From assembly GCA_000004985.1 (NCBI GenBank), contig GG738846.1: a DNA stretch of 64,000 nt; one strand, written 5' to 3'. The notes beneath the pieces are model-generated. The model searched no databases, was not told the origin of the DNA, and saw only the letters and a program-made list of their open reading frames with translations. The position numbers were made by a program, and so were the translations under genes. Origin of the DNA: Naegleria gruberi (taxonomy: Eukaryota). Positions 12,189 to 50,290 of this stretch are shown piece after piece (the first letter of the stretch is position 1; the number at the start of each line of letters is the position of its first letter).

Positions 12189-15100
12189 ATGAATATAAAA
12201 CACATTTGCTTCACAGCATTTAGCACGGAAGAAAGGGTAAGTAGTGATTTTTATTTAATGTATGATGATGATTTTGTTGATAGAAAGAATTATCGGAAAA
12301 GGCAATAAATCTGGGGCTTATTGTGGATACTAATTTCGAAATATATACCGAAGTATTGATTGCTCATAGAATCGGAACAGATAAATACAGGCTAGCAGCA
12401 GAAAAAAAGATACCAATCTTGAAGAAGGAGTGGTTGTTAGCCTGTGAAACAGAAGGAGAATTGGTGAGCATTGAAAAGTACAAACTTCCTTGTCTTTATA
12501 ACTGTACAATTTCTGTCACAGGATTCAAGGAAAAGGAGAGAAGCCAAATCAAAAATTTATGCGAGCAGAACGGAGCCTCCTATTCATCAAGTCTCACAAC
12601 AGGCTATACCCATTTAATTTGTTTGGTATGTTGTAAATAATAATATTGAGATTTTTCTAATCATCACAATAGAAGGGAGGTAGTGAAAAATTCCATTTTG
12701 CACTTTCGAATAATATTACCGTAGTGGGTATTGATTGGATTAAAAAGTCTGTAAAGGCAGGTTATGCTTTGGATGAAGCTGATTTTATTCTAAGCACCAT
12801 TTCAGAGGAAGAGAAACAACAATGTCTTGAAATTGCAAACAAGTAAGTAATATTTAATACCCAAACAATTTATCATATCAGATTCAAGCAGCAAATAGGA
12901 TTGGAAATGGAGGAGGTTGTAAAACCCTCAGTAAAACACTCAATTCTTCAAACTCAAGGAATGAAGTTGGATACATCAAGCACAGAATCATTCTCTCTGA
13001 GCTCACAATTTTCATCTGAGGATGTTCAACTTTCGCTCTTTAATGGATTAGTTTTCTATCTTGTTGGATTTCCTACAGACCTAGTAACTAGTGTGAGAAA
13101 ATTAATTAGAAAGTATGGTGGAAATGCCACTTTTACAACAAACAGTTTGAATTATATAATAGCTAACGACAATACACCACCTGAAACCATCAAAAATCTC
13201 AAAGAGAAACTCAATTATGATCCTCCAGTTGTTTCATACAAGTGGTTCCTTAATTGTATAGAGAGTATGCAAGTTTTACCTATTGAGGAGAAAAATGAAC
13301 AAAATGAAAAAATATCCTCAAGTACATTCGATGACAATAATATTGATATTGATATCAGCGAAGAGGATTTAGCTGATGCAATCCAATCTCAAACTTGTAT
13401 TACAAATGAGATGACACATGAAAAGAATGAAAAGCTTCTCTTTTCTAGCCTTTTGTTCAAGCTTGCTGACAATTTATTGTCACAAAAACAAATTGCTAAA
13501 TCTATAATTGAAAGGAATGGTGGAAAATTTGTGAATTTAGGACTAGATTATGATTTTATAATATATCCAGAGTCTTGCAAAACCCCTCGTGAAACTAACC
13601 CAAAAATAAGAACACTAAAATGGCTAAAAGACTCGGATGCTGAAAAAACTGTAAAGACTGCAGAGGAGTGTCTACTTTATGTGCCTACCTTCAGATTGGC
13701 TCTTGATAAAATCAAAACTGAAAATGAAAGGCTCCTCATTGTAATTTCCGGATACCCTGATCAAAAGCAGATATTACAATCTATTATTGAGGCTCTGGGT
13801 GGTTCCACTTCCAAGACTATGAGAAAAACTGCAGACATTCTGGTTTGTGAAAAGAAATCTGACAAGTCGGATTTTGCCATCAAACACCAGATACCAGTTG
13901 TTAATGAGAAATGGCTGTTTGATAGCTATAAGGCTGGATACTTCCTTTCTCCCACAGATTTTATTTTCAATCCTAACTCTACAAATTCTAACATCACACC
14001 CAATATTTCTGTGAAAACCAGCATCACAACCACCAACACTACAGACAAAAATATTAATAAGGATACCTCGACTAGCACCACACCGACAGAAAAAAAATCA
14101 ACCAATCTTCCTGTATTTGAAAAGACTGAAAAGGCAGATAAAGAGGATCAGATAACACCAACAAAGACTATAATACTCGATGAAAATGCACGAGATTCCA
14201 ATTCTCCTCATAGTACTACCAATATCCAACCCCCAACTATGCCAGCTCCTCCCACTCCTACCACTGTAATACCTGTTGATACTGCAGCTTTAACTAATTT
14301 CAAAAGCAAATTGCTCGATAAACTACCAAAGAGGAAGGATACCACTACAAAGGCAATAGAATTTTCTGAACAATCAAACGTACATTTTATTCCAAAAAAG
14401 AATTTGGAAAATCTGACATTTTTCAATTCTCAAAACACTTCAGAATCCAATAGTCTCTCACACTATGGAGGCACCTCTGAAGCAGAAAATGAATACAATG
14501 AAAAGGTAAAGAATGATAGAAATAGAACTATTCCAGATTTTGCTATGAGTCTTGGGACATTTGCTGAAACCCAAGTTATTGATCACGACAATGAGGTTCA
14601 AAAAATCAAATGGAAACAATCGAATGCAGAGAAACGTCACTTTTTACTTTCTTCATTAGCCGAAAAGCAAAAAAAGGAGGTCACAAAATACATCCAAGCC
14701 TTGGATGGAGTAATAGATGAATTGTACATACCCAATGTGACAACACATTTTATTGCTGGCTCAGCAGTTCAAACTGAGAAATTTCTATGTAGTGTAGCTG
14801 CAGGTATTTGGATTCTTTGCCCAAAATATGTTGAAGATAGTTACCAACAGCAATACTGGATACAAGAGGATGACTATCAATGGATCCATAAGCAAGCCGA
14901 TATTAAGTCAGATCAACAGGATGCTATCAGGTATCTCATAACTGCCCAAAAAATTAGGGATAACAAGACTAAGCCATTTTCAGGAATGTCAGTCTTTTTC
15001 GTTCAGAACACAAACCCTTCATTTGTTAGAATTATTACTGCAGGAGGTGGGGTGATACTCCCTTCCATAACTGATCCACGTCTCACTCATATTTTCGTAA

Positions 15101-15270
15101 AGGAGGCAAGTGACACTGAAGATATGAAAAAAGCATATCCCAATACTTTTGTGACCTATGAAGAGCAAATTAGCGGTTTTCTAATGACTGATGAAAAGAA
15201 AACTTCTAGAGAAACATCAAGTGAAGAAAGTGAAAAGAAGAAGAGGAAAGTAATAAAGAAAAGCAAATAA
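12189..15270 (+). CDS. TopBP1/Dpb11/Cut5-like multi-BRCT DNA replication and checkpoint protein, in a four-exon model
   Basis: Exons are 12189-12236, 12284-12625, 12673-12843 and 12889-15270. Introns are 12237-12283 (GTAAGT...TAG), 12626-12672 (GTATGT...TAG) and 12844-12888 (GTAAGT...AAG). Exons 1-3 encode two BRCT folds (ICFTAFSTEER..., LPCLYNCTISVTGFKEKERSQIKNLCEQNGASYSSSLTTGYTHLICL/KGG...). The large exon holds more BRCT-like units (LFNGLVFYLVGFP..., ERLLIVISGYPDQKQILQSIIEALGG..., HFIAGSAVQTEKFLCSVAAGIWILCPKYV...). Alternative: exons 1-3 form a separate small gene ending shortly after 12843. Confidence 0.6.
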
Positions 15271-15980: not shown

Positions 15981-16167
15981 TTTTTTTGAAATTGTAAAGA
16001 TTTTGTATTACTCCTCGTTTGGTGATTTTTTTAATTACCTGAAATAATGTGTTAAATGTCAAAGGTAGCCGTCAGGTTTAAAGGTAGTTCTCCACAAACT
16101 AAAAATTATTAATTTCGCTCAAAATTTATCTAATTACCCGCGAATTGGTAATAAATTGAAAAAAAAA

Positions 16168-19100
16168 ATGTTGGCAAGAAAATTGTTTGGAAAATGCACA
16201 ACAAATAATCGCCATCTCGTATTAAAATCATCGCAATATGCCACAAAATTCTACTCCACAAGTGGTGCTGAAAAAAATTTAGTTGCAAATATTGAGAGTT
16301 GTATAAGAAATATTAATAATCATTATCGGAGTAAGAAAGAAAAAGAATTTAATAACGGTTTGCTGGATTTGAAGCAATTTTGCTCCCAATTAAATGATGC
16401 AACGGAAAGGAAACTAAATGAAAAATCGTGGAATTTTTTGATTCAACAATTTTGTAGAAACGAAGCCTTTAGTGATGAAGCTACATTTTGGTTCAGAAGA
16501 GTTATGAAAGAGAAGAAATTAGCCACTCCAAATTCATTCACTTTGACTGCGATATTAAAATCATTCTCTACTATTGGTGAATTAGATATGTGTGAAGAAA
16601 TTCTACAAGAATTAGAAAGTCAAGGACTATGCAACGTTTTCTCATACATATACTACACAAAAGCTTGTCTTCAAAATGGAAACACTGAGAAGGCTTTCAG
16701 TGTTATTGGACGTATGGAGAGTAAACAAATTGAACCAAGTTTTGGAATATACATTCCTCTTCTAAAGGAAGCAACTAACCAAAATAATGTGGAAGTTGGA
16801 TTGAAACTTTATGATATGATCAAAAAAAGTAACTTGGCAAGTTTTCAATTATCATCTTGTATCGCCACTTTTGCTTTGAAGGTGAACCGACCAGATATTG
16901 CAATCGAAGAATACGAAAAGATTAAACAGAGTGAATTGATGAATGTTATAACTTGGACATGTTTAATTCAAGCATACATTCAACAAAATGATACTGAGAA
17001 AGCAATAGATACGCTTATTGACATGAAAAAACATGGTATATACCCAGATTCTGCAACATTCACAATTTTATTGAGTGCATGTGCAAATTCTAATATGTAT
17101 GAAGAAGGAGTTAAAATTCATGAACTTGCAAAACAAACACTCAAAGATTTCACAATTGGATTATCAAACACAATTATTAATTTTTACACAAAATGTGGTT
17201 ATTCAAATATTGCCATAGAAGAATGTGAAAAATTGAAACAGAACGGATTGATGAATGTTGTAACTTGGACATGTTTAATTCAAGCATACATTCAACAAAA
17301 TGACATTGAGAAAGCAATAGATATGATTATTGACATGAAAAAGCATGGTATTTACCCAGATTCTGCAACATTCACAATTTTATTGAGTGCATGTGCAAAT
17401 TCTAATATGTATGAAGAAGGAGTTAAAATTCATGAACTTGCAAAACAAACACTCAAAGATTTTCAATTAGACTATCAACAGCAACTATTAATTTTTACAC
17501 TAAATGTGGTTATTCAAATATTGCCATAGAAGAATGTGAAAAATTGAAACAGAAAGGATTGATGAATGTTATAACTTGGACATGTTTAATTCAAGCATAC
17601 ATTCAACAAAATGATATTGAGAAAGCAATGAATACGATTATTGACATGAAAAACAGTGGTGTTATACCTAGATTCAACAACATTCACAATTTTATTGAGT
17701 GCATGTGCAAATTCTAATATGTATGAAGAAGGAGTTAAAATTCATGAACTTGCAAAACAAACACTCAAAGATTTCACAATTGAATTATCAAACACAATTA
17801 TTAATTTTTACACAAAATGTGGTTATTCAAATATTGCAATCGAAGAATACGAAAAGATTAAACAGAGTGAATTGATGAATGTTATAACTTGGACATGTTT
17901 AATTCAAGCATACATTCAACAAAATGATATTGAGAAAGCAATAGATACGCTTATTGACATGAAAAAACATGGTATATACCCAGATTCTGCAACATTCACA
18001 ATTTTATTGAGTGCATGTGCAAATTCTAATATGTATGAAGAAGGAGTTAAAATTCATGAACTTGCAAAACAAACACTCAAAGATTTCACAATTGAATTAT
18101 CCAACACAACTATTAATTTTTACACTAAATGTGGTTATTCAAATATTGCCATTGAAGAATGTGAAAAATTGAAACAGAACGGATTGATGAATGTTGTAAC
18201 TTGGACATGTTTAATTCAAGCATACATTCAACAAAATGACATTGAGAAAGCAATAGATATGATTATTGACATGAAAAAGCATGGTATATACCCAGATTCT
18301 GCAACATTCACAATTTTATTGAGTGCATGTGCAAAATCTAATATGTATGAAGAAGGAGTTAAAATTCATGAACTTGCAAAACAAACACTCAAAATATTTT
18401 CTTTAGAGCTATCGACAGCGACTATTAATTTTTATACTAAATGTGGTTATTCAAATATTGCCATTGAAGAATGTGAAAAATTGAAACAGAAAGGATTGAT
18501 GAATGTTATAACTTGGACATGTTTAATTCAAGCATACATTCAACAAAATGACGTTGAGAAAGCACTGAATACGATTACTAATATGAAAAACAGTGGTGTT
18601 GTACCTAACTCAACAACATTCACAATTTTATTGAGTGCATGTGCAAATTCTAATATGTATGAAGAAGGAGTTAAAATTCATGAACTTGCAAAACAAACTC
18701 TCAAAGTTTTCACAATTGAATTATCGCAACACAATTATTAATTTTTACACAAAATGTGGTTATCCAAATATTGCAATCGAAGAATATGAAAAGATTAAAC
18801 AGAGTGAATTGATGAATGTTATAACTTGGACATGTTTAATTCAAGCATACATTCAACAAAATGACATTGATAAAGCAATAGATACGCTTATTGACATGAA
18901 AAAACATGGTATATACCCAGATTCTGCAACATTCACAATTTTATTGAGTGAATGTGCAAATTCTAATATGTATGAAGAAGGAGTTAAAATTCATGAACTT
19001 GCAAAACAAACTCTCAAAGATTTCACAATTGAATTATCAAACACAATTATTAATTTTTACACTAAATGTGGTTATTCAAATATTGCCATAGAAGAATGTG

Positions 19101-21364
19101 AAAAATTGAAACAGAAAGGATTGATGAATGTTGTAACTTGGACATGTTTAATTCAAGCATACATTCAACAAAATGACATTGAGAAAGCAATAGATATGAT
19201 TATTGACATGAAAAAGAGTGGTGTTTACCTAGATTCAACAACATTCACAATTTTATTGAGTGCATGTGCAAATTCTAATATGTATGAAGAAGGAGTTAAA
19301 ATTCATGAACTTGCAAAACAAACTCTCAAAGATTTCACATTTGAACTATCAGACACAATTATTAATTTTTACACAAAATGTGGTTATTCAAATATCGCCA
19401 TTGAAGAATGTGAAAAACTGAAACATAACGGATTGATGAATGTTGTAACTTGGAACTGTTTAATTCAAGCATACATTCAACAAAATGACATTGAGAAAGC
19501 AATAGATATGATTATTGACATGAAAAAGCATGGTGTTGTACCTAATTCAACAACATTCACAATTTTATTGAGTGCATGCGCAAATTCTAATATGTATGAA
19601 GAAGGAGTTAAAATTCATGAACTTGCAAAACAAACACTCAAAGTATTTTCTTTAGAGCTATCGACAGCGACTATTAATTTTTATACTAAATGTGGTTATT
19701 CAAATATCGCTATTGAGGAATGTGAAAAACTGAAACAGAAAGGATTGATGAATGTTGTAACTTGGACATGTTTAATTCAAGCATACATTCAACAAAATGA
19801 TATTGAGAAAGCAATGAATACGATTATTAATATGAAAAAGAGTGGTGTTGTACCTAATTCAACAACATTCACAATTTTATTGAGTGCATGTGCAAATTCT
19901 AATATGTATGAAGAAGGAGTTAAAATTCATGAACTTGCAAAACAAACACTCAAAGATTTCACAATTGAATTATCAAACACAATTATTAATTTTTACACAA
20001 AATGTGGTTATTCAAATATTGCCATAGAAGAATGTGAAAAATTGAAACAGAACGGATTGATGAATGTTGTAACTTGGAACTGTTTAATTCAAGCATACAT
20101 TCAACAAAATGATATGTCAAACACCCACACTCCATCAGATGCAGAATATGGGTTGAATAAGGCATTTAGAGTCTATCAGGAAATGAAACAAAAAAACTTT
20201 GAACCTAACAGTTATACCTTCAGCATTTTAATGGCAGCGTGTGGAGAATATGTAGCTTCAAACATTGGAATTCAAATAATTGAGGATATAAAACAAAACA
20301 ACATGGATATCTATGAAGAGGTTATTTCTGGTATGGTTTATTTTTACTCTAGAGTTGGCCAAAAAGAAACTGCACAACAATTATTTGATAATCTTGTTAG
20401 AAAGAAGGATGAATCAAAAGAACCACTTTCTATCGTCACTTATACTAATATGCTTTCTTGTTATGCACAACACGGTAAAGGATATGAAGCTCAAAAACTG
20501 TTCGATGAAATTGTTGAAAAGAAAGTCAAAATTGATGAAATAACTCTAATAGTATTATTGAATGCATATTCACATTGTGGAATGGTTGAAGAAGCAATTC
20601 AATTATATAATGATATGAAACCAAAACATAATTTTAATCCAACCCTCTCTATTGATTGCGTTATGATTGATGTGTTTTCTCGTGCAGGAAGATTTGAGGA
20701 AGCAGAAAAACTAATAGGTAGTCGCAATGATATTGGTTTGTGGGGCGCATTGATGGGAGGATGTAGAAAATTCAATAAGATTGAACTTGGTGAAAAAGTA
20801 TTTAACAAAATGACAACAATTGATGAAAAACTAACCTCACCCTATATATTATTATCCCATATCTACACATATCATGGATTAAACGAAAAAGCTAACAAAT
20901 TGCAAAAATTGATGCGAAAAAGAGGTATAAAAAAATTGCCTGGTATTGTGTATCATGAAGAAAATGGCATTGTATTTAGATTTATTTCTGGATCTGACGA
21001 CCACAAAGAGGACTCTCAAATGTTTGCACAAATTGAGAGAATGAGAGATGAAATATTTCGTAAAATTATTAAGGCTGGATATAGACCAGATACAAGATGG
21101 GTTACCAGAACCGAATCATTGTCAGAGGAGGAAAAAGTTAATTTGCTTTATCGACATGCTGAAAAAACAGCCATTGCTCACGCCTTTGTTTTGAATCCAA
21201 ATAGAAAGAAAATAGTATTAACAAAAAATCTGAGAGTTTGCAATGATTGCCATTCGGCTACTACGTACATTTCAAAAGTGATGGATGTTGAAATTATTGT
21301 AAGAGATGCCAATAGGTATCATCATTTCAAAGATGGAAAATGTAGTTGTGGTGGTTATTGGTAA
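16168..21364 (+). CDS. PLS-class pentatricopeptide repeat protein with C-terminal E and DYW (cytidine deaminase) domains. It is a putative mitochondrial C-to-U RNA editing factor. The reading frame as assembled is broken by three 1-nt indels, so it is either a pseudogene or an assembly error.
   Basis: The ATG at 16168 starts a presequence-like N-terminus (MLARKLFGKCTTNNRHLVLKSSQYATKFYSTSG). The C-terminus is a DYW domain: HAEKTAIAHAFVLN...NLRVCNDCHSATTYISKVMDVEIIVRDANRYHHFKDGKCSCGGYW, with the HxE and CxxCH zinc-binding motifs. The body is about ten tandem 104-aa P-L-S triplets. Frame breaks sit near 17480 (-1), 17670 (+1) and 18725 (+1) and split the gene into track ORFs 16156-17529, 17656-18741 and 18635-21364. 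Confidence 0.8.
16892..20110 (+). repeat. Tandem array of about 10.3 copies of a 312-bp coding repeat, each one PPR P-L-S triplet, roughly 90% or more identical, arranged in a higher-order A-B-B' pattern
   Basis: The unit anchor 'caaatattgc' recurs at 17204, 17515, 17828, 18140, 18452, 18765, 19077, 19389, 19701 and 20013. The first unit starts near 16892 with a diverged left flank (gatattgcaatcgaag). Spacings are 312 nt, except 311 and 313 where the single-nucleotide indels lie. Units alternate between type A (IAIEEYEKIKQSELMNVITW...IDTLIDMKKHGIYPDSAT) and type B (IAIEECEKLKQ(N/K)GLMNVVTW...IDMIIDMKK...). Confidence 0.85.
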
Positions 21365-21555: not shown

Positions 21556-21962
21556 CTTGCCTTTGTTTCGTCTTGGCAAATGTCTTGTTGAAAAACTAAA
21601 CTGTAAAGACAGTTATATCCATCAACTTCACAAAATGACAAACTTCCCACAATAGGAAATTTGTCCTCCTTTGCTCTTCATACTATTTTAGACTCTTCAA
21701 AACATCATTCACACTTTACAAAACCTGAAGGTTAGGCATCTAACCACAACATTTTAATTATTGATAAATATCAATAATCAATTACCAAGGACAAATCCAC
21801 TCGCAACAATTCGCACCTCACATGCAATAATAATCCACTCACTCTTTCACATTTTATGAAACAAGCGCACACGCTCACAAAAAAGTTGCCAAGATTTTCA
21901 AAAAAAAACAAATCACGCATTGCAAACTCATTGTTTTGTTTCTGTTTGGAGAAGAGAAGAAA

Positions 21963-23312
21963 ATGGTTTTAAATTCATCAACGTTAAACAGGATGAGTAG
22001 TACAATCTCGAGGAGGTTGATCGTTTGTGGTGCTGCTACCATCATGATTTTGTGCGTAATTTTGAGTGGTGTTACTTCTGCTACTACAAGTAATAGCAAT
22101 AATAACAAAATTTCGGAATCAACACTGATTACTACAACAGCAACTAGTAGTGACAATGACTCATCATCAACCACCACAACAACAATATTGGGTTATGTTG
22201 GATCATTGATTGCCATTCTCTTCTATGGAAGTAACTATGTAGTCACAAAGAAATATCCAACAGGAGATGGTGTTGCCTTTTCCTGGTTAATGTCTAATGG
22301 TATTTTCTTTGTTGGATTCATATCATTGGCTCTCACAACTGATAACAAGTTGATTTTTGTTCCGACTGGATTGTTGAGTGGAAGTATTTGGGCCACTGGT
22401 AATTTACTTGTCATTCCAATTATTAAATGTGTTGGGCTGGGTTTAGGATTTTTATTGTGGAGTGGTGCTAACTTGATTGGTGGATATTGTGTTGGTAAAT
22501 TGGGATTGTTTGGTGTTGAGAAGGAGGTGATTGATAGTTTGGGAGGTAATATTATGAACATTTTTGGTTTAGTTTGTGGTATTATCAGTTTATTATTATT
22601 CTTCTTTATTAAACCCCCACAGGAAAAGAAGAAGAATGATGATGAAACACCTCAAACTGAAGAAAATACAACTGAAGCTGCCACTGAGGGTACTTCATTG
22701 TTAAATAATGAAAATGAACCTCAACAAAATCTCAATGATGAAAAGTCAATCAATGATGACATTGTCGTTCAAGATGTTAGCAAGTTTAAAGCTTTTATGA
22801 ACAAGTTGAAAAAGATTTCTCAACATCCAGCATTTGTCAGATTATTAGGTATTGGTATGGCCATTACTGCAGGTTGTTTGTATGCTGTCAATTTGACTCC
22901 TTTCAAATTGTGGGTCCAACATGAAATTTACATTCACAACAAATCTCCAGGTCCTATTGATTTTGCCTTCTCTCATTTCAGTGGAATTTATTTATTGAAC
23001 TCGGCTGTATTTTTGATTTACATTTTAATCAAAAAGAATCAACCAGAAATTTATCCAAACATGATTATGAGTAGTATTATTAGTGGCGCCATGTGGGGTA
23101 TTGCTACTATTGGTTTATTGTACAGTTCTTCTTACTTGGGCTTTACTGTTGGTTATCCACTTGTTGCTATTGGACCATCTTTGGTTTCTACTTTCTGGAA
23201 CGTTTGTGTTTTTAGAGAAATTACTGGTGTTAGAAATTTGATCATCTTATCGTGCTCTTTGTTATTTGCTCTTATTGGTGTCATTTTGTTGGCTGTTAGT
23301 AAGATTATTTAA
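21963..23312 (+). CDS. TMEM144-family multi-pass membrane protein (putative sugar-transport-related 10-TM family)
   Basis: The track ORF begins at TTG 21936; the first ATG is 21963. Comparison with human TMEM144 recalled from memory shows collinear conserved blocks. [23 protein letters not shown] matches [47 protein letters not shown] matches [41 protein letters not shown] matches FAHFSGIFL. The C-terminus is ...LLAVSKII. Confidence 0.7.
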   Translation: [449 protein letters not shown]

Positions 23313-39447: not shown

Positions 39448-41703
39448 TTAAACTTTCAAACTTTCAGTCAATTTCTTTCTAAATGATTCAACATCAAGCA
39501 TGTCTCGTGTAATTTCTGCTTTTTGTTCTGCTGAAAGTTTTGTACTCTCGGCTATAAAATCCAACAATTGCTGATATAGAGAGACTAATTGTTCGATGAT
39601 TGGTTCTAATAACTTGGTGGTTGTCTTGTCTTCATTCAGATAGAGCTTCATTAGTTCCTTAATATAGGTTAGTTTGGTGGTCATTTCCTCATTCATTTCG
39701 CTCTTGATATTGGAAATTTCTTTCATTATTTCACTAGTTTCTTGTGAGTCCTTATTGATGTTATTCTTCTTGATAAAGTTCATACAAGAATCAGCAACAT
39801 GCTTTACAGTGTTGAGGATGAAATTCTCACAAGCGAGCTTGAGTTGCTTTTCAAGATCTCTCTTCGAATCAGTGCTATTAACAACCAACCTTGGTCTTGT
39901 TTGACTGAGTAAATCAAAAATAAGACTGGTGACACTGAAACTTGCTTGTCCCTTCAAAAATCTTGAAATGCCCTCATACAAATGGGAAAAATCGAGTGTA
40001 GTCTGTGTTTTGGTAAAACTAACATTAAAGTAGCTCAATTCTTGTAAAAGAGTTAAAAAGTGGCTAATTAAAAATAGGGACCCATTCAATGCATCTGTCT
40101 TGTCAGAAATCTTCTTACTGGCATCAATGAATGACATGGAGCAAATAGTGACAGCCTCCTGTGCCATTCCCTCAAAAACTACCACATCCAATGCACTAAA
40201 AAGTTTACTCAACAATGCAACAGTCCACCCAAGAGTTGGATAGTGAATGTCTAGTTGTTTCCTTGCAGTTTCTGAGGAGGAAGGATCATTCTGTGCTTTG
40301 AGCTTGTTTGGATAATCAATATCTTCTGGATGTGGAACATATCTCGCAATTTCATTCGTAATAAATAATGAAGTTCTATAGATTAATCTCTCTTGAATGT
40401 CTTGAATCATAGCGTGTACCATATGTTCAATGGCTTGACTAGGTTTTCCCTTGTTTTGCACACGCTCGACAAGAATGTCACTTCTCAAAATATCAATTAA
40501 AGAACACAAAGTATCTATTCTATTCTCTTCAATGATCAACTCTCTTACTCTTTCATAAAGAATATTGGTAACACCCTTCATAAAGTGAGAAAATTTGTTT
40601 CCAATCTGACGATTATCTTTAGAAAGTGAAAATAATTGTTGGAAGAGTTGGGTTTCTTGGGAGCATATTTGAATCATGTATTCACATGATGATCTGATAA
40701 ATTTAGTCTTGAAAGTCTTTTCATTCTCACTTTGCTTGGCTTGATTGAGTAGGAGAGTAATTCTTCTTTCTATTGAAAGACCCAACAATACTCCTCTCTG
40801 TTGAATGAAAATATCAAACAGATCCGTGATAAAAACTGAAGACTCTCTTCTTCCTCCTCGTTTCTCTAACTCTCTAATAAGAGCTTTCAGTGGATCAACA
40901 GCAACCTTAAAGTCAATGTACAAGTGGGTCATCTCCTGAATGGAATCATCAATAGAGTTGAGAGATTTTAATTTTACAAATTGTGCGTCTGTGGTTGCCT
41001 TTATCTTTGATCCGATCGTGTCTCTCAAGTGAGCCAGCGATTTGGAGAGAAGATATTTGTGCTTGGTGAGGAAGGTCTTGGCTTCCTTGTATTCCAAATT
41101 AGCTGAAAGGAAATTAATAGAATCATCCAATTTTCCAATAGTTTTGATAAATGTTTCACCATTAACATCTAAAAATCCACTGGATGTTAATTGTTGATTC
41201 AAGAAATCCATATCATCAAAGTGTAACAATCTATTTTCCAATTCCTTGCTAAACTTTTCCAATTGTTCCGTTTCCTTGACAAGTGTTTCACAATCGTGAT
41301 GTAATCGACTGGTTTTTTGTGAGACTAATTGATATTGTTCTTGTAAATCATCGGAGAGTGCCAAAGTATTATTACTGGCCACAATCAACGAATGACTCAA
41401 CTCTTGATAGTGTCTCAATTTTGTTAAATAATCTTCATAGGGTTTATCCACTTGTTGATCAAAGTCATGTTGATAGAGAAAATCACCAGAATTCCAAACA
41501 GAAAAATCGACAAGACTACTTTGCTGATCATCTGCTGCTGATGATGAAGAAGATGGTGGCTTATCCATTGTTGAATAATCGTGATTAAATTCCTGATGAA
41601 TTTCTTCTAACAATAATTCCTCCTCTCTCGATAGGAGTGTATTCTTCTCCCATTCCGATATGATAACACTCATAGGTTTGGTGCTTGATGTGGTGGTGGA
41701 CAT
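39448..41703 (-). CDS. COG3: Conserved oligomeric Golgi complex subunit 3 (COG3/Sec34)
   Basis: 751-aa ORF. It is collinear with human COG3 recalled from memory. ...QQRGVLLGLSIERR... matches DQRELLLGPSIA. ...IQDIQERLIYRTSLFITNEIARYVPHPEDIDYPNKL matches [36 protein letters not shown]. ...TLGWTVALLSKLFSALDVVVFEGMAQEAVTICSMSFIDASKKISDKTDALNGSLFLISHFLTLLQ matches [69 protein letters not shown]. Confidence 0.7.
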   Translation of the reverse strand: MSTTTSSTKPMSVIISEWEKNTLLSREEELLLEEIHQEFNHDYSTMDKPPSSSSSAADDQQSSLVDFSVWNSGDFLYQHDFDQQVDKPYEDYLTKLRHYQELSHSLIVASNNTLALSDDLQEQYQLVSQKTSRLHHDCETLVKETEQLEKFSKELENRLLHFDDMDFLNQQLTSSGFLDVNGETFIKTIGKLDDSINFLSANLEYKEAKTFLTKHKYLLSKSLAHLRDTIGSKIKATTDAQFVKLKSLNSIDDSIQEMTHLYIDFKVAVDPLKALIRELEKRGGRRESSVFITDLFDIFIQQRGVLLGLSIERRITLLLNQAKQSENEKTFKTKFIRSSCEYMIQICSQETQLFQQLFSLSKDNRQIGNKFSHFMKGVTNILYERVRELIIEENRIDTLCSLIDILRSDILVERVQNKGKPSQAIEHMVHAMIQDIQERLIYRTSLFITNEIARYVPHPEDIDYPNKLKAQNDPSSSETARKQLDIHYPTLGWTVALLSKLFSALDVVVFEGMAQEAVTICSMSFIDASKKISDKTDALNGSLFLISHFLTLLQELSYFNVSFTKTQTTLDFSHLYEGISRFLKGQASFSVTSLIFDLLSQTRPRLVVNSTDSKRDLEKQLKLACENFILNTVKHVADSCMNFIKKNNINKDSQETSEIMKEISNIKSEMNEEMTTKLTYIKELMKLYLNEDKTTTKLLEPIIEQLVSLYQQLLDFIAESTKLSAEQKAEITRDMLDVESFRKKLTESLKV

Positions 41704-42223: not shown

Positions 42224-45200
42224 ATGTTTCTCACCAAGCTAAGGAGGGGTGGAAGTAAGGATGAAGCAACATCGCCCTTAGGATCATCTTCACCTTCCTC
42301 TGCTGCTACCTCTTCTAGTAACAATGTTGGTGTAGTGTCCTTTCTGAATAGAACGTTGGGGAGATCAACTAGTAATAAGGACATTGGCGTGGTTGGTAGT
42401 ACTAGCCCAGTTGAAAATTCCTCACCATTAACACTTCAAAGGAGAAAGCCAACAGGTTCTCCTAATGGAGGAGGTGTATCGAGTGCTACTTTTACCTCAA
42501 CACCCAAAAGAACAAATTCTACCAATGATAGAACCTATTCAATGGACGATTCAATAACAACCACTCACGAATTGGTTGAAGATGGTGAGGATAAGAGAAA
42601 GATTCTTGATGAAGAGGAAAAGGAAAGGCTTAAAATTCAACAAGCCCAACAAATGTTTAATTCTCTGATGCAACAATCCGTATACAAACAAATCATGGAA
42701 GAAGATAGATATGTAAGTGTTTTCAACTGTTATTTAAACAAACTGAATATTAAAAAATGTAAAGACGAGCGATCAACGAGCCCTTCACTTGTCGGATTCA
42801 CAAATTCAAGAGGAAATTGATTTGTTAATTGGAAAAGATTGGGAATCAAAAAAAGGAAAACAAGAATGTGAATTGTTTAGAAAGAATATGAGCTTGTGAG
42901 TTTTGATATGCTTTTTTATTCAATAACAATGATCCTCAATTATTATTTTATAATAATCATGATGATGCTATGTAATTATAGAGCAAGATTATTTCGAGAA
43001 AAACAAACAACTCAATCAGTTCTACCTCCTATCTATGCAACATCAGATCCACCACCTTCAAAATTCAAAGGCTCATTCATGTGTAAAGTAAATTTACATT
43101 TCAAAGATGATTCCGATCCTACCTTGAAACGTATGGTAAAAACTGTACATTGCAATGGTGAAATGTCTGCAGATGATTTTGCTGAATTCTTTATTAACAA
43201 GTTAAATTCAGCCTATTTAACAAAACGAAGGAAGGAAGAGTGGTTTTTTAAAGCCACTGGAGCTGCCGAGTACATGTATGGAGATACTAGAATGATTGAT
43301 TTTGAGCACATTAGAAACTGTATAAACAAAGAAATACCTATAGAACTAACATTGATGGATAAAGAAACCATTGAGAAGGAATCAGATCCAATGGATGTCC
43401 ACCTTAAAAATATAGAGTATGACCTTACAAAGCAATCGAGTTTTGAATCTATTGATAGTGATGAGTTACATTTTTGTGGAGATAATTGGAATTCAATGAA
43501 GGGAATCAGTCTATGGGATTTGCATCACAGAAAGTTTAAGATAAAAATAATAGGAGCAGATAACGTTATTCCAAATATATTCCACAAGAACTCTTCCACA
43601 ATTTCTTTCAAGCCACAGGAGACCTCAACATATGTTATGATAGATTTATATCATGGAGGTTTATTATTGGCCAGAAATTTCACCAACTCAGTAGCATATT
43701 CTAGATATTTGAGATGGAATGAAAACATTGAATTTCCTCTCAGAATATCAGATTTACCTAGAGAAACCAAGATTTGTATTACTATTTTTGTAAAACCATA
43801 CAAGAAGGAAGAAACTCCTTCGAAAGGAAACAATTTCAAAAAGCACGTACCATTGGCCTATGTCAATTACAAGATCTTTGATTATAATGAAAAATTCTTG
43901 AATGGACTTAGATCTTTGAGAATGTGGCCAAATGAGGCTCACGAACCATCCAATGCCTGTGTTGAAAATGTTGGACTAGGAGCACTGGCTGACGATGACG
44001 CGCCTTGTGTTTTCACATACTATATAGAAGAATTTGTGAAACCTGTATATTTCCCAACTAATTGCATTCCTGGGGAATTATTTTTCAATTCCTATGTTGA
44101 ATATGAAAAGAGTCAAAGGGAAATATACAAGGCAATTCCAGAGGATCAATTGATGGAGTATTTAGAACAAGTTTTATCGGAGAGTCCCCTTAAACTTCCA
44201 ACAGATGAAGAAAAATGGAGATTGTGGGAAGCCAGAGAGATTTTGAAAAAAAATCCAAAAGCCCTACCAAAAGTAATGTTGAGTGTTCCTTGGCAATACC
44301 CATATGCTGTCTATCTGGCCCATTCAATAATACCTAAATGGAAAGAGCCAGAAACCTTGGATGCAATCGAGTTGCTTGATTTTAATTACAGTAGCGAACA
44401 TGTGAGAAGATATGCATTGAAATTGTTGGATAAGCTACCAGATAATACGTTTGCTGATTTTGTATTACAATTAGTACAAACTCTCAAGTATGAATTATAT
44501 CACGATTCTCCACTCTCTAGGTATTTGCTAAAGAGAGGCTTGAGAAGCACTCACATTATTGGACATATTTTATTTTGGCACTTGAAGGCAGAAATGCACG
44601 TGCCTTACATTAGAGAACGATATGGTATAATATTGGAAGAATATTTGAGAAATTGTGGAGGTCACAGAAGAGAGCTATTGAAACAAAGTGGTATTGTAGG
44701 TCAATTGTACTCAATTGCAATGAAAGTTAAGGAGGCCAAATCTGAAGACCATTTGAAGGTACTAAGAGAAGAGCTATCCAAGCTAAGACATCCTCCAAAA
44801 TTTACTCTTCCACTCAGTCCAAAGATGGAAGTCAAAGGTGTATTGGTTGATAAGTGTAAGGTTATGGATTCCAAAAAGTTACCGCTTTGGCTTGTTTTTG
44901 AAAATGCTGATGAAACAGCAGCTCCTGTATTTGTAATGTTCAAAGCTGGTGATGATATCAGACAAGATTTGCTTACACTTCAAATGCTCAAGATTATGGA
45001 CAAGTTGTGGAAACATGAAGGCCTCGATCTACACATGCAACCATATGGTTGTGTATGTTTGGGTGATATGATTGGTATGATTGAGATTGTTCTCAACAGT
45101 ACTACCATTGCAAAGATTACTGGTAAAGCTTTGCATGCCTTCTCTGATGAACCAATATACAATTGGCTAAAGTTGCACAACACAACAGATAATGAATGGA

Positions 45201-45712
45201 TTACAGCTGTGAATAACTTTGCCCTTTCAAGTGCAGGCTATTGTGTTGCAACGTATGTGCTTGGTATTGGTGATAGACACAATGATAATATCATGGTAAC
45301 AAAGAAAGGAGACTTATTCCACATTGATTTTGGTCACTTTTTGGGTAACTACAAGAGTTTCCTATTATATAAAAGAGAAACAGCACCATTCGTATTCACT
45401 ACAATGTATGCCTATGTGATGGGAGGTGAAGGAAGTACAAAGTATATTGAATTTTCAGAGAATTGTTGTGCGGCTTACAATATTATCAGACAGCACGGAA
45501 AGTTACTCATTAACTTGTTTTTACTAATGCTTGCAACAGGTATTCCAGAATTGAGATCTTCAAATGATGTAAAATGGATTGAAAATTGTTTAAAGTTGAA
45601 AGGAACAGACGAAGAAGGTTCTGCTCACTTTAGAGAACAATTAAAGAAGAGTCTCAGCAATACCAAGACAAATATCAACAATGCACTCCATATTATTGCC
45701 CACCAAAAGTAA
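42224..45712 (+). CDS. Class I phosphatidylinositol 3-kinase catalytic subunit (RBD, C2, helical, kinase domains) with a low-complexity N-terminal extension; three exons
   Basis: Exons are 42224-42712, 42765-42895 and 42982-45712. Intron 42713-42764 is GTAAGT...AAAG. Intron 42896-42981 is GTGAGT...TATAG and joins in phase 2 (TT+A). Total is 3351 nt, 1116 aa. RBD-like: ...FMCKVNLHFKDDSDPTLKRMVKTVHCNGEMSADDF... Kinase: ...GDDIRQDLLTLQMLKIMDKLW..., ...LGIGDRHNDNIMVTKKGDLFHIDFGHFLGN... Confidence 0.75.
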
Positions 45713-47755: not shown

Positions 47756-50290
47756 TTATTGAACTAATTTAGAGTGATACTTGTTCATGTACATGGATAA
47801 AGCCCAGATTGGGAAGATATTTCTATAGTTTGTATAGGTAATCATACAATTGTGATTGAAAACACCAGAAATGGATTCTTGTGGGAAGTCACCATTTGGT
47901 AATTGTTTTCTCATCAAACAATAGATACCCTTTTCAATAACCTTAAGATTTGGATAATTTGAAGTCATCAAGGCGAGTAAAGACCAAGCAGTACTGATAA
48001 CACGTGAAGTTTCAGCATGTGAATAACGGTGAGTCACACATGAAAGATAACTTTCTCCCCAACCACCATCTTCCATTTGTTTGGCAACAATGAAATCACA
48101 TCCACGCTTCAAAGCTTGTGAATTACCATAGTTGAGTGTTGGATCAGCACTGACAATGGCAGTAGTGGCAAACCATGTACCATAACAGAAACAGACAGCC
48201 CAACCACCATACCAACCACCTTCTTCCATTTGTTTTCCTTCAATTACTTTGATAGCATGTTTGATACTATCATCAATCATTGGAACGTATGGAGATTGTG
48301 GGAAGTGTTTCTTGAATTGCAACAAGGCAGTAATACAGGCACTTGTACATTCAGTGTGTGGATAGTCAATCATAATTTCACCATACAAAGCAGCAGGATT
48401 GATAATTTCAATCCATGAGTGTGTACGAGACAATTCATAAGTTGCCCAACCACCATTTGTACCACCATTGAACATGGACAAAATGACACGGACAGCATCT
48501 GTTAATCTTTCTTCACTGAGAATTAATTCATCACTAGTTAATGGATTCATTTCATTCTTTCCATAGTATTCTTGTAATTGTGTCTTGAGTTTTTCAATGT
48601 TTTGTAAATTGGATTCAGAGCTATTGGTTTGAGTTCCCTTAATATTGAACAAATCGTACAAGGTCAAAACAGCCTTCAAACCTTCAGCAGTACAGTCAGA
48701 AATTGGCCAACCGTGATCACGTGTAGAGAATGGCCAACCACCCTTAGATTGATGTCTATAATATTCCATTCTATTTGGAACGTCTTCCTTGACTTGAGTG
48801 AAATTGATAAAGTTGTAAGCATTCAAAAGCGAATTCAAATGCTCATTCTTAAATGATCCTTGACATGAAATTTGATTATCTTGGTTCTTGAATCTCTTGT
48901 AATATTCACAAATAGCTTGAGAAGCAAAAGCAGTATCCCACAATTGAGAACCATTATAACCTTGGAATTTCATACCATCATCAGATAACCACAAATAGTC
49001 ATAAACTCTATCTAAATGTTTGTTGAAAAGTTCACTATCTGATCCGTCACTGAAAAATACTGATAACATGTTCAATACCTTATTGACAGGACCAATACAG
49101 ATATGATTGGTGACACTATCTTCATATTTGATATGTTCAATACACTTCTTCAATGAAGCATTTCTCAAGAATGAGAAATTAATATACTTTTCATAAACAG
49201 TCAAAACACTAGCAAATTTAGAATAGAGTTGAGTGAATGGATGGTAATTGTCACGTGGATTAACATATGATCTATACTTTGACCAAGGTTGATTTTGATA
49301 ACTTGTCTTGGAGACTTGATCGTATAATTCATTTCTCAATTGTGAAATAATTGGATCAGTTTCAGCATTGGCATAAACCTTCTTGATACCATACAAGTAT
49401 GCCATTGGTAAATAAACAACACGACAATGGCACCACCATTTACCTGGTTGAATATATGGGAACCAATCAGGTAATAACCATAATTCACATGGAATTGGAT
49501 CAATACAATCCCAATCCATCAAACCCAAACAACATAAATATAATTTAGCCCATTGTGGTGCTCCCAAAGCACCGTTAGCAGGTTCCTTACTAAGGAATTC
49601 CAATGTTAATTTCATGCATGAATGATCTGGACTAACACCCAACAATCTCAATGCAACATAATTCAAAACTGTACCAAAAATGGTTGAGTGACCTTCAATA
49701 TGAAGTCCATAACCTCCATCTTGATTTTGTTTAGACAAGATGTATCTAACAATTTCATATTCAAATGGTTTAGGTAATCTCTTTTGACAAATATATAACA
49801 CAATCACAATACCAGGTAATAAAAACATTGGACCACCATAATCTCCGGCCCAATGTCCATCTTGTGTTTGAACACTAGAATAGAAATCAATAGCTTTCAA
49901 TATACTAGCATCAACTTGATGTTCATCTAAATTAATTATATAATTATTACTCTTATTAAAGATGTATTTTAATTTGTCATCATTATCGGCATTAGTAGTT
50001 GCTTGGTCATCATCATTGGTGGAACTAATATTACTTGATGTTGTACCCACAACAAGAGGATGATTATTAATATAAGTGATTGGATCTTCAAAATTTGAAG
50101 GCTTGTTTAACAAGTGTTTATCAACATTTGATTGTTCTTCTCCCGATTGTTTTAATAAAGATTGTGGGAATGGAATCCAACGTTGACGACCTTCTTTGAC
50201 GACTAATCTCCATTCTATTGGACCGGATTGGGAATAGTCATAGGAATCGAATTTAAATTCCTCCAATAATTTGTTAAGATTGATTGACAT
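47756..50290 (-). CDS. Oxidosqualene cyclase, most consistent with cycloartenol synthase
   Basis: 844-aa ORF. Repeated QW motifs (QNQDGGYG, QMEDGGWGE, QLPNGDFPQ) and the catalytic ...DHGWPISDCTAEGLKAV... (DCTAE) mark an oxidosqualene cyclase. Relative to the catalytic Asp it has His at -6 and Ile at -2. These correspond to A. thaliana CAS1 His477/Ile481; lanosterol synthases carry Cys/Gln and Val there. Confidence 0.8.
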   Translation of the reverse strand: MSINLNKLLEEFKFDSYDYSQSGPIEWRLVVKEGRQRWIPFPQSLLKQSGEEQSNVDKHLLNKPSNFEDPITYINNHPLVVGTTSSNISSTNDDDQATTNADNDDKLKYIFNKSNNYIINLDEHQVDASILKAIDFYSSVQTQDGHWAGDYGGPMFLLPGIVIVLYICQKRLPKPFEYEIVRYILSKQNQDGGYGLHIEGHSTIFGTVLNYVALRLLGVSPDHSCMKLTLEFLSKEPANGALGAPQWAKLYLCCLGLMDWDCIDPIPCELWLLPDWFPYIQPGKWWCHCRVVYLPMAYLYGIKKVYANAETDPIISQLRNELYDQVSKTSYQNQPWSKYRSYVNPRDNYHPFTQLYSKFASVLTVYEKYINFSFLRNASLKKCIEHIKYEDSVTNHICIGPVNKVLNMLSVFFSDGSDSELFNKHLDRVYDYLWLSDDGMKFQGYNGSQLWDTAFASQAICEYYKRFKNQDNQISCQGSFKNEHLNSLLNAYNFINFTQVKEDVPNRMEYYRHQSKGGWPFSTRDHGWPISDCTAEGLKAVLTLYDLFNIKGTQTNSSESNLQNIEKLKTQLQEYYGKNEMNPLTSDELILSEERLTDAVRVILSMFNGGTNGGWATYELSRTHSWIEIINPAALYGEIMIDYPHTECTSACITALLQFKKHFPQSPYVPMIDDSIKHAIKVIEGKQMEEGGWYGGWAVCFCYGTWFATTAIVSADPTLNYGNSQALKRGCDFIVAKQMEDGGWGESYLSCVTHRYSHAETSRVISTAWSLLALMTSNYPNLKVIEKGIYCLMRKQLPNGDFPQESISGVFNHNCMITYTNYRNIFPIWALSMYMNKYHSKLVQ

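What the first reader, a model, noticed from the sequence alone, without database searches (positions are those of the whole stretch)
20900..21364. DYW-type cytidine deaminase domain ending in GYW with intact zinc-binding motifs
The C-terminus ...HAEKTAIAHAFVLNPNRKKIVLTKNLRVCNDCHSATTYISKVMDVEIIVRDANRYHHFKDGKCSCGGYW keeps the deaminase signature HxE...CxxCH and the C-terminal CSCxxYW. The final tripeptide is GYW rather than DYW. This supports catalytic competence for C-to-U editing and marks the locus as part of a plant-like organelle RNA editing system in an amoeboid eukaryote. In Naegleria-type organisms only about two mitochondrial editing sites are known, so each DYW protein is potentially site-specific.
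Basis: partly seen in the sequence, partly recalled or inferred. Interest (0 to 1): 0.6.

Follow-up and report, generated by a model that had tools for sequence, protein, structure and literature searches.

The report
Unannotated, frameshift-separated Naegleria PPR-DYW gene end
The DYW cytidine-deaminase domain is real and has every catalytic residue, but it belongs to an already known family of plant-like RNA-editing factors in Naegleria gruberi, and in this assembly three single-base frameshifts cut it off from the start of its own gene.

Summary
Window 20900-21364 (+) translates exactly to the quoted peptide. It ends a 909-codon ORF (18635-21364) carrying PPR repeats, an E motif and a full-length Pfam DYW_deaminase match (E=1e-37). 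HAE, CNDCH, HHF and CSC are intact, and the AlphaFold model superposes on solved PPR-DYW structures.

The window is Naegleria gruberi NEG-M nuclear DNA. DYW-type PPR proteins (10-11) and two mitochondrial C-to-U sites were already reported there. GYW is a known minority ending in plants, and Naegleria paralogs end in NYW, DYW or GYW.

- The ORF is the 3' part of one 5.2-kb gene starting at ATG 16168. Its core is ten near-identical 312-bp P-L-S triplet units.
- Three 1-nt indels in that array (about 17463, 17664, 18727) put the N-terminal part out of frame with the DYW part.
- The public model (XP_002682649, 749 aa) hides two indels in a 324-nt "intron" and stops at the third, so no protein in the databases searched contains this DYW domain.

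Removing the indels gives a stop-free 1731-aa protein. The repeat units show purifying selection (pN/pS about 0.3). The indels are therefore either consensus errors or a very recent inactivation. The family is ordinary; the locus is mildly interesting.

The parts
16168..16269 (+). Start codon and presequence-like N-terminus (MLARKLFGKCTTNNRHLVLKSSQYATKFYSTSG...). This is the same start as public model XP_002682649.
   Evidence: The first 34 residues hold 6 K/R and no D/E, and there are in-frame stops upstream. Model P0126 starts here. No targeting predictor was available, so mitochondrial import is inferred.
16426..16944 (+). Five degenerate N-terminal PPR-like motifs (aa 87-259 of the frame-corrected protein).
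   Evidence: Manual tiling of contiguous 32-36-aa motifs. Pfam PPR hits on ORF 16156-17526.
16895..20112 (+). Tandem array of 312-bp units, 10.3 copies, 91% matches. Each unit encodes one P-L-S triplet (35+35+34 aa). There is a 3-unit (936-bp) higher order: u1, u4 and u7 are 97-98% identical.
   Evidence: TRF, unit alignment, 936-bp spacing, identity matrix and pN/pS 0.35, block A versus block B 96.7%.
17455..17472 (+). Frameshift 1: a 1-nt deletion relative to the unit consensus (AAAGATTTT^CAATTAGAC), in unit 2. The original frame then hits a stop at 17527-17529.
17658..17672 (+). Frameshift 2: a 1-nt insertion (GGTGTT[A]TACC, base 17664), in unit 3. It restores the original frame.
17348..17671 (+). 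The 324-nt GT-AG 'intron' of the public gene model. It consists entirely of repeat-unit coding sequence and removes frameshifts 1 and 2. It is most likely a modelling device and not a real intron.
   Evidence: Mapping of P0126 onto the window: exon 1 is 16168-17346/7 and exon 2 runs from 17671/2. Every unit carries the same GGTAT...CCAG|AT strings.
18721..18741 (+). Frameshift 3: a 1-nt insertion (TTATCG[C]AACAC, base 18727), in unit 6. The upstream frame stops at 18739-18741, which is where the public model ends (...ELSQHNY*).
18635..21364 (+). The longest uninterrupted ORF (909 codons; first in-frame ATG at 18659). It carries the last 4.5 repeat units, a diverged P-L-S, P2-L2-S2, E1, E2 and DYW. 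It is unannotated in the public protein set downstream of 18741.
20432..20737 (+). P2-L2-S2 motifs (20432-20536, 20537-20644, 20645-20737).
   Evidence: Motif tiling, coordinates, helical repeats at pLDDT above 90.
20738..20938 (+). E1 (20738-20839) and E2 (20840-20938) motifs.
   Evidence: Pfam E_motif PF20431 at E=1.2e-13, coordinates.
20939..21361 (+). DYW cytidine-deaminase domain (141 aa). It has a PG box (PGIVYHEENG), HAE at 21155-21163, CNDCH at 21239-21253, HHF, and CSCGGYW at 21341-21361. The stop is at 21362-21364.
   Evidence: Pfam PF14432 at E=1.2e-37, PDB hits, invariant columns retained, AF2 pLDDT 91.9 with Foldseek hits to 9kfx, 7o4f and 7w86, alignment with Naegleria paralogs.

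Best explanation
Window 16168-21364 (+) is one intronless nuclear gene of Naegleria gruberi NEG-M for a plant-type PLS-class PPR-E1-E2-DYW protein. The flagged segment is its C-terminal deaminase domain.

Inferred mechanism, by homology to plant and moss DYW editing factors: a basic N-terminal presequence takes the protein into the mitochondrion. The PPR tract has about 41 motifs, 30 of them from a recent tandem amplification of one P-L-S triplet. It binds single-stranded RNA one nucleotide per motif, through residues 5 and last of each motif. E1/E2 then position the DYW domain, whose zinc site (His and Glu of HAE, Cys-Cys of CNDCH) deaminates a cytidine just 3' of the bound stretch to uridine. 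A second zinc site (His of CxxCH and HHF, plus CSC) stabilises the fold.

Shown here: the domain architecture, the intact motifs, the fold, the repeat structure, and purifying selection on the repeats.

Not shown here: expression, import, the RNA target, and activity.

In the assembly, three single-base indels inside the repeat array break the frame. The public model (XP_002682649 / NAEGRDRAFT_45423) therefore stops at 18741 and lacks E/DYW. I judge it slightly more likely (about 55:45) that the indels are consensus artefacts of a Sanger assembly across 97%-identical repeat blocks, and that the real gene is an intact 1731-codon ORF. The alternative is that they are genuine and very recent inactivating mutations.
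For: Organism and locus: exact identity of three window ORFs to N. gruberi proteins on a 1,001,995-bp scaffold.

One gene: removing the 3 indels gives a 5196-nt ORF with no stop (1731 aa), and PPR motifs tile it contiguously from aa 87 to E2. The chance of 1731 open codons is about 5e-48.

Annotation: the public model P0126 shares the ATG at 16168, skips 17348-17671 and ends at 18741. No database protein is more than 68% identical to the DYW domain or more than 50% identical to the last 423 aa.

Domain: Pfam, PDB, alignment and structure results. The domain also carries Naegleria-clade signatures shared with N. gruberi paralogs: PGIVY, HAEK, NPNRKKI.

Selection: pooled pN/pS among units is 0.35. 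For the three youngest unit pairs it is 0.28, with synonymous changes in excess at binomial p=1e-4.

Artefact-compatible pattern: all three indels lie in the clusters of differences between units, and they look like fine-scale mosaics of two unit types.

Literature: 10-11 DYW-type PPR proteins and two C-to-U sites in N. gruberi (PMC4202320). DYW clade features are HxEK and a second metal site of two His plus CxC (PMC3239186).
Against: As assembled, there is no uninterrupted frame from the start codon to the DYW domain.

Two of the three indels are not simple homopolymer slips and combine a substitution with an indel. That is less typical of base-calling error.

Relatives in metagenomes also show damaged DYW genes: a -1 frameshift in a tandem PLS array in L006, and loss of HxE in P0242. 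Real decay of paralogs clearly occurs in this lineage.

Ten near-identical triplets predict a monotonous, 3-nt-periodic target (G-?-Y/A)n. That is odd for a site-specific editing factor in a 78% A+T mitochondrial genome.

No transcript, target or activity data could be consulted.
Confidence: 0.8

Rival explanations
1. Recently dead pseudogene. The three frameshifts are real, no full-length protein is made, and the intact DYW domain is a not-yet-eroded relic. It would be one of the surplus DYW paralogs in a genome with only two known editing sites.
For: There are three independent frame disruptions in the deposited sequence. The literature gives 10-11 DYW proteins against 2 sites. Related heterolobosean-like contigs show a frameshifted PLS array (L006) and a DYW ORF that has lost HxE and is split from its PPR ORF in two independent assemblies.
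Against: There are no nonsense codons in 1731 codons after the indels are removed. All catalytic and invariant residues are kept. pN/pS is about 0.28 even between the youngest repeat copies, so any inactivation must be very recent. All three indels lie in the part of the gene most prone to assembly error.
Confidence: 0.4
2. Two functional products. The locus is expressed as a 5' PPR-only protein (the annotated 749-aa model, or the ORF ending at 17529) plus a separate ~900-aa PPR-E-DYW protein translated from an internal ATG (18659). The two might work together, as DYW-less E-class PPRs work with DYW1-like proteins in plants.
For: ORF 18635-21364 has in-frame ATGs at its 5' end, and the first residues (MKKELKFMNLQNKLSKF...) are basic. 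Trans-acting DYW donors exist in plants: DYW1, PDB 7w86, appears among the hits.
Against: The ATG at 18659 lies in the out-of-frame stretch just 5' of frameshift 3, inside an otherwise regular repeat unit. There is no intergenic spacer, because the array runs straight across the junction. No promoter or transcript evidence is available. The arrangement is explained more simply by a 1-nt insertion in one gene.
Confidence: 0.08
3. The frame breaks are bridged by real introns, as the public model implies for 17348-17671, so the mature mRNA is in frame.
For: The public model uses a GT-AG junction that restores the frame across frameshifts 1 and 2.
Against: The 324-nt 'intron' is entirely repeat-unit coding sequence. 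The GT and AG strings recur at the same position in every unit, so any whole-unit skip looks spliceable. No such device was found for frameshift 3, where the model simply terminates. Each break is a single-base length difference from sister units.
Confidence: 0.04
4. Plant DNA contamination or a chance motif match, not a Naegleria gene.
For: After the Naegleria-clade hits, the best matches are land-plant PPR-DYW proteins at 33-40% identity.
Against: The gene is flanked on both sides by N. gruberi genes on the same contig. Its G+C content (0.29-0.32) matches the window. Its closest relatives are N. gruberi paralogs at 50-68% identity, sharing clade-specific residues. The Pfam E-value is 1e-37.
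Confidence: 0.01

Closest known systems
Naegleria gruberi DYW-type PPR proteins (Knoop & Rüdinger 2010; paralogs XP_002672651 / P0001, XP_002678365 / P0002, XP_002674667 / P0027, and the 132-aa model P0241)
   Same: Same organism and same PLS-E-DYW architecture. The DYW domain is 50-68% identical. Clade-specific features are shared: PGIVY in place of PGxSW, HAEK (shared with P0002 and P0241), NPNRKKI, and a non-aspartate third-from-last residue in several paralogs.
   Different: This copy's DYW domain is missing from the public protein set. It ends in GYW and has a 4-aa insertion (EDSQ) after the PG-box region. Frame-corrected, it is 1731 aa, against 132-662 aa for the annotated paralogs. It carries ten near-identical tandem P-L-S triplets and three frameshifts.
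Land-plant PLS-class PPR-DYW RNA editing factors (e.g. Physcomitrium PPR56/PPR65, Arabidopsis OTP86; structures 7o4e/7o4f, synthetic PPR-DYW 9kfx)
   Same: The (P-L-S)n-P2-L2-S2-E1-E2-DYW order is the same. HxE, CxxCH, HHF and CxC are all present. The predicted fold superposes on 9kfx (TMq 0.83 over 420 columns) and on DYW1 (TMt 0.89, rmsd 1.9 Å).
   Different: HAE replaces HSE (2 of 151 homologs have A). The PG box reads IVY, not xSW. The ending is GYW. The PPR tract is far longer and internally near-identical. The host is a heterolobosean, where no MORF/RIP-type helper is known (my own knowledge, not tested here). The editing target is unknown.
Designer / consensus PPR proteins (dPPR, cPPR, synthetic PLS arrays; PDB 5i9g, 5orm, 5iww)
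   Same: The array is built from many nearly identical repeat units, and differences fall at specificity positions among others. P-motif position 5 (T/N), P-motif last position (D/N) and S-motif position 5 (N/T/D) are among the variable columns. These proteins are the next-best structural neighbours.
   Different: This array is natural, made by tandem DNA amplification with a 936-bp higher order. It was not engineered. Enrichment of variation at code positions is not statistically established: 4 of 6 code columns are variable, against 33 of 104 overall.

Membership tests
PLS-class PPR-DYW organellar RNA editing factors | Tandem P, L and S type pentatricopeptide motifs in triplets | tested here: met
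   Pfam PPR_2 at E=1e-107 and PPR at E=2e-76. There are ten 104-aa units of 35+35+34 aa with P-, L- and S-like consensus, tiled without gaps.
PLS-class PPR-DYW organellar RNA editing factors | C-terminal P2-L2-S2-E1-E2 extension preceding the DYW domain | tested here: met
   Pfam E_motif PF20431 at E=1.2e-13. Motifs are placed at 20432-20938 and are helical at pLDDT above 90.
PLS-class PPR-DYW organellar RNA editing factors | DYW_deaminase domain above the Pfam gathering score, full length | tested here: met
   PF14432 scores 128.1 bits against a cutoff of 24, covering profile positions 1-93 of 93.
PLS-class PPR-DYW organellar RNA editing factors | Catalytic zinc site HxE(K)...CxxC(H) | tested here: met
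   HAEK and CNDCH are present. H355, E357, C383, C386 and H387 fall in invariant columns. The feature list is from PMC3239186. The x residue is A, as in 2 of 151 homologs.
PLS-class PPR-DYW organellar RNA editing factors | Second metal-binding cluster (two His plus C-terminal CxC) | tested here: met
   HHF (H410, H411), H387, C417 and C419 are all retained in invariant columns. Metal binding itself was not tested.
PLS-class PPR-DYW organellar RNA editing factors | PG box (PGxSWIExxGxxHxF) at the E2/DYW junction | tested here: inconclusive
   PG, the Glu, the Gly and the Phe are present, but SW is replaced by VY and the His by Phe (PGIVYHEENGIVFRF). N. gruberi paralogs have the same variant.
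PLS-class PPR-DYW organellar RNA editing factors | C-terminal tripeptide D-Y-W | tested here: not met
   The ending is G-Y-W. This is a recorded natural minority variant in plants, and the position varies among Naegleria paralogs (N, D or G). It is therefore a name-giving feature that does not exclude membership.
PLS-class PPR-DYW organellar RNA editing factors | Cytidine-deaminase fold with the DYW-specific insertion | tested here: met
   The AF2 model has pLDDT 91.9. Foldseek gives 9kfx at E=7e-26 and TMq 0.83, 7o4f/7o4e at TMt 0.73-0.78, and 7w86 at TMt 0.89.
PLS-class PPR-DYW organellar RNA editing factors | One continuous reading frame joining the targeting sequence, the PPR tract and the DYW domain | tested here: not met
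   Three 1-nt indels (about 17463, 17664 and 18727) interrupt the frame in the assembly. A continuous 1731-aa frame exists only after they are corrected.
PLS-class PPR-DYW organellar RNA editing factors | Organelle targeting | tested here: inconclusive
   The N-terminal 34 aa hold 6 K/R and no D/E. No targeting predictor or localisation data were available.
PLS-class PPR-DYW organellar RNA editing factors | A cognate C-to-U editing site matched by the PPR code, and demonstrated editing activity | not testable with these tools
   The N. gruberi mitochondrial genome and transcriptome are not in any accessible collection. Only a code-based footprint could be derived.

The most novel reading that the evidence does not exclude
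The gene is intact in vivo and encodes a natural 'designer-like' editing factor. It would be a ~1731-aa protein with ~41 PPR motifs, 30 of them created by recent tandem amplification of a single P-L-S triplet in 3-unit blocks. The copies are kept under purifying selection and are diversifying at specificity positions. The protein would bind a ~30-nt, 3-nt-periodic purine-rich RNA (roughly (G-A?-Y/A)n). That would show how new PPR specificities, or binding to repetitive RNA, arise by unit amplification outside plants, and it would add an unannotated member to the Naegleria editing machinery.
Probability: 0.15. Interest if true: 0.55.

Novelty: new member of a known kind. Interest (0 to 1): 0.3.

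Why it matters
DYW-type PPR editing factors outside land plants are rare. Naegleria gruberi is the reference case, and it carries a long-noted mismatch: 10-11 DYW proteins against only two known editing sites.

This locus adds three things:
- It corrects the public annotation. NAEGRDRAFT_45423 is the 5' part of a PPR-DYW gene, not a DYW-less PPR protein.
- It is a concrete candidate for either a decaying surplus paralog or an assembly-broken giant editing factor. A single amplicon or long read would decide between the two.
- It is a clear natural example of PLS-triplet amplification, which bears on how PPR arrays gain length and new specificity.

None of this changes what is known about the family's mechanism.

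Tried and rejected
- Orthologs, to test whether the frameshifts are conserved. The metagenome-contig scan with the C-terminal 423 aa returned only 29%-identical loci, L001-L003, so it was no help.
- Recovering the N. gruberi scaffold annotation through the look-up of encoding contigs with neighbouring proteins. They were not on record.
- Reading the primary papers to see whether this locus is among the published 10-11. Knoop & Rüdinger 2010, Rüdinger 2011, Schallenberg-Rüdinger 2013 and Knoop 2011 are not held. The supplement of PMC4202320 lists no accessions. A search for the accession and locus tag found no paper.
- A third protein search with the DYW domain alone, to count annotated N. gruberi DYW proteins. 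It returned only short proteins (105 candidates), so no count could be made. It did show again that nothing identical exists.
- A second DYW domain or other PPR genes in the window. None was found.
- The intron explanation for the frame breaks. Rejected, because each break is a single-base length difference from sister repeat units.
- The plant-contamination explanation. Rejected.
- Enrichment of repeat variation at PPR code positions. 4 of 6 code columns vary against 33 of 104 overall. This is suggestive but not significant, so it is not claimed.
Full report
**1. The observation**

It ends ...HAEKTAIAHAF...LRVCNDCHSATTYISK...RYHHFKDGKCSCGGYW*. It is the end of an ORF at 18635-21364 of 909 codons. 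The stop-codon frequency in this window is 0.061 per codon, so an open frame of that length has a chance probability near 1e-25.

Pfam gives the following on this ORF:
- DYW_deaminase (PF14432) at E=1.2e-37, 128 bits against a gathering score of 24, covering the whole profile.
- E_motif (PF20431) at E=1.2e-13.
- Very strong PPR matches.

Against solved structures the segment matches a synthetic PPR-DYW (9kfx, E=2.6e-42), the OTP86 DYW domain (7o4e) and DYW1 (7w86). In a 38-sequence alignment every invariant column is retained, including H355, E357, C383, C386, H387, H410, H411, C417, C419 and W423.

An AlphaFold2 model of the last 423 residues has mean pLDDT 91.9. Its best PDB match is the synthetic PPR-DYW/RNA complex (TMq 0.83 over 420 columns), followed by designer PPRs and the isolated DYW domains.

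The only correction is that 20900 lies inside the E2 motif. The DYW domain proper is 20939-21361.

**2. Where the window comes from**

Three ATG-initiated ORFs elsewhere in the window are identical to Naegleria gruberi NEG-M proteins EFC50111, EFC50115 and EFC49917. All three lie on one 1,001,995-bp scaffold. The neighbouring genes are ordinary nuclear genes: a BRCT protein upstream, TMEM144 downstream, then COG3, a PI3-kinase and an oxidosqualene-type cyclase further away. G+C content is uniform at about 0.29-0.37.

The 'amoeboid eukaryote' is therefore N. gruberi itself. This was the first non-plant organism reported to have DYW-type PPR proteins. The literature gives 10-11 such proteins and two verified mitochondrial C-to-U sites (Knoop & Rüdinger 2010 and Rüdinger et al. 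2011, as quoted in PMC4202320).

**3. What is really at the locus**

Upstream of the flagged segment lies a tandem array of 312-bp units spanning 16895-20112, with 10.3 copies at 91% matches. Each unit encodes 104 aa that parse as one P-L-S triplet of 35+35+34 residues. Units 1, 4 and 7 are 97-98% identical to each other, and the array has a 936-bp (3-unit) higher order. Blocks A and B are 96.7% identical over 936 bp.

Aligning the units shows three single-base length differences:
- A deletion in unit 2, after 17463.
- An insertion in unit 3, at base 17664.
- An insertion in unit 6, at base 18727.

These explain the frame pattern. An ORF runs from ATG 16168 to a stop at 17527-17529. A second ORF covers 17656-18741. 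The DYW-bearing ORF starts at 18635.

Adding one base and removing two gives a single 5196-nt ORF of 1731 codons with no internal stop. It begins with a basic, acid-free N-terminus: MLARKLFGKCTTNNRHLVLKSSQYATKFYSTSG, with 6 K/R and no D/E in 34 residues. It then continues through five degenerate PPR-like motifs, the ten near-identical triplets, one diverged triplet, P2-L2-S2, E1, E2 and DYW, tiled without gaps. Only one DYW domain and one PPR gene exist in the window.

**4. Annotation status**

The public model for this locus is XP_002682649.1 / EFC49905.1 / NAEGRDRAFT_45423, a 749-aa 'predicted protein'. It starts at the same ATG. It jumps over 17348-17671, a 324-nt GT-AG 'intron' made wholly of repeat-unit coding sequence that happens to contain frameshifts 1 and 2. 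It terminates at the stop created by frameshift 3, reading ...ELSQHNY*. It has no E or DYW Pfam domain.

Two searches of the 5.8-billion-cluster protein collection found nothing closer than N. gruberi paralogs. These are 50% identical over the last 423 aa (P0001, P0002) and 68% identical over the DYW domain (P0241). This DYW domain is therefore absent from the protein databases searched.

I could not determine whether it was nevertheless among the 10-11 published N. gruberi DYW proteins. The primary papers are not held. No paper in the library mentions the accession.

**5. Are the frameshifts real?**

Arguments for a functional gene, or a gene that was functional until very recently:
- No nonsense codon appears in 1731 codons.
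- All catalytic and invariant residues are intact.
- The repeats show purifying selection. Pooled pN/pS is 0.35. For the three youngest unit pairs pN/pS is 0.28, and synonymous changes are in excess at p=1e-4. Gene conversion between units could inflate this signal.

Arguments for consensus artefacts:
- All three indels lie inside the array.
- They fall within the clusters of differences between unit types.
- Locally they look like mosaics of two unit types. That is what a consensus built from reads of different, 97%-identical blocks or alleles would give.

Arguments for real mutations:
- Two of the three are not simple homopolymer slips.
- DYW genes in related environmental contigs are visibly damaged. 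L006 has 308-bp tandem PLS units with a -1 frameshift in an A-run. In L004/L005 the DYW ORF has lost HxE (it reads ...LYPEK...) and is split from its PPR ORF in two independent assemblies.

I put the odds at about 55:45 in favour of artefact. A single amplicon or a set of accurate long reads would settle the question.

**6. Mechanism**

This is inferred by homology to plant PPR-DYW factors. It was not tested here. The PPR tract binds RNA one base per motif, and E1/E2 position the DYW deaminase on a cytidine a few nucleotides 3' of the footprint. The zinc site formed by HAE and CNDCH catalyses C-to-U conversion. The second metal site (two His plus CxC) is a clade feature listed in PMC3239186 and is present here.

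Code residues (position 5 and last) in the repeat part:
- P motifs are mostly T/D (G), sometimes T/N (A) or N/N (Y).
- S motifs are N/N (Y) or T/N (A).
- L motifs are T/T or T/S, for which the code is uncertain.

This gives a 3-nt-periodic footprint of roughly (G-n-Y/A)n. It is a testable prediction, but it is an odd target for a site-specific factor in an A+T-rich mitochondrial genome. It is one reason to keep the pseudogene reading alive.

**7. The GYW and HAE details**

GYW is a minority ending already tabulated in plants: 2 of 93 in Arabidopsis, 3 of 82 in rice and 2 of 65 in sorghum (PMC5365158). It occurs in two plant-like hits here. In the Naegleria clade the third-from-last residue is N, D or G.

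HAE replaces HSE in only 2 of 151 homologs, both from the Naegleria clade. From my own knowledge, H/C-A-E is the usual signature in other cytidine and adenosine deaminases. Neither detail argues against catalysis, and neither is novel.

**8. Comparison and verdict**

The locus meets the architectural, motif and fold criteria of PLS-class PPR-DYW editing factors. It fails, in the assembly, the criterion of a continuous reading frame. It carries a known variant of the name-giving tripeptide. Targeting, target and activity are untested.

It is a member of a known family in the very organism where that family's non-plant occurrence was first described. What is new is limited to three points:
- The DYW half is missing from public annotation.
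- The gene is unusually long because of a recent tandem amplification of PLS triplets.
- Its functional status is ambiguous.

The finding is of modest interest (0.3). It is useful as an annotation correction and as a small case study of PPR array growth or paralog decay.

Noticed in passing
window 17348-17671: The public N. gruberi gene model (XP_002682649) contains a 324-nt GT-AG 'intron' made entirely of PPR repeat-unit coding sequence. The same GGTAT...CCAG|AT strings recur in every unit, so any whole-unit skip looks spliceable. This looks like a gene-modeller device to bypass two frameshifts.
   Followed up: yes
L006 1-641 (ENA ERZ27315067 k141_1309238): A related environmental DYW gene (P0003, 45% identical, ends GNYW, has HAE) also has near-identical tandem PLS units (period 308 bp, 81% matches). 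It has a -1 frameshift in an A-run (GGAAAGAAACTT against GGAAAAAACTT) that splits the array into two ORFs.
   Followed up: partly
L004 1770-3820 and L005 1112-3819: In another related environmental locus, seen in two independent assemblies (ENA and JGI), the DYW ORF (P0242) is separated from the PPR ORF by about 35 nt. It has lost the catalytic HxE (it reads LYPEKMAMAF) while keeping CNDCH and CSCGNYW. It is probably a degenerate paralog or an intron-containing gene.
   Followed up: partly
N. gruberi proteins P0241 (132 aa), P0002 (386 aa), P0001 (536 aa); not in the window: Other annotated N. gruberi DYW paralogs look truncated. P0241 is a DYW domain alone, and P0001 starts inside an S motif (MSFYTKCG...). 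Gene models of this family in the 2010 annotation may be systematically incomplete, and counts of DYW proteins based on them may be unreliable.
   Followed up: no
window 16895-20112, unit columns 5, 35, 70, 75: Among the ten repeat units, the variable amino-acid columns include four of the six PPR specificity positions: P5 (T/N), P-last (D/N), L-last (T/S) and S5 (N/T/D). This hints at diversification of the RNA code after amplification. It is not statistically significant (4 of 6 against 33 of 104 columns).
   Followed up: partly
L001-L003 (JGI metagenome contigs Ga0315914_1004672, Ga0315913_1017566, Ga0228711_1001634): Three environmental contigs encode the same PPR-DYW protein, 29% identical to the query over 407 residues. 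The organism is unknown. This could be another non-plant or plant-derived DYW source.
   Followed up: no
window 12901-15270 (+), 21936-23312 (+), 39448-41703 (-), 42896-45712 (+), 47756-50290 (-): The neighbouring genes are ordinary nuclear genes: a multi-BRCT protein, a TMEM144-family transporter, COG3, a class-I-like PI3-kinase and a squalene/oxidosqualene cyclase. None is related to RNA editing, so there is no clustering of editing factors.
   Followed up: partly
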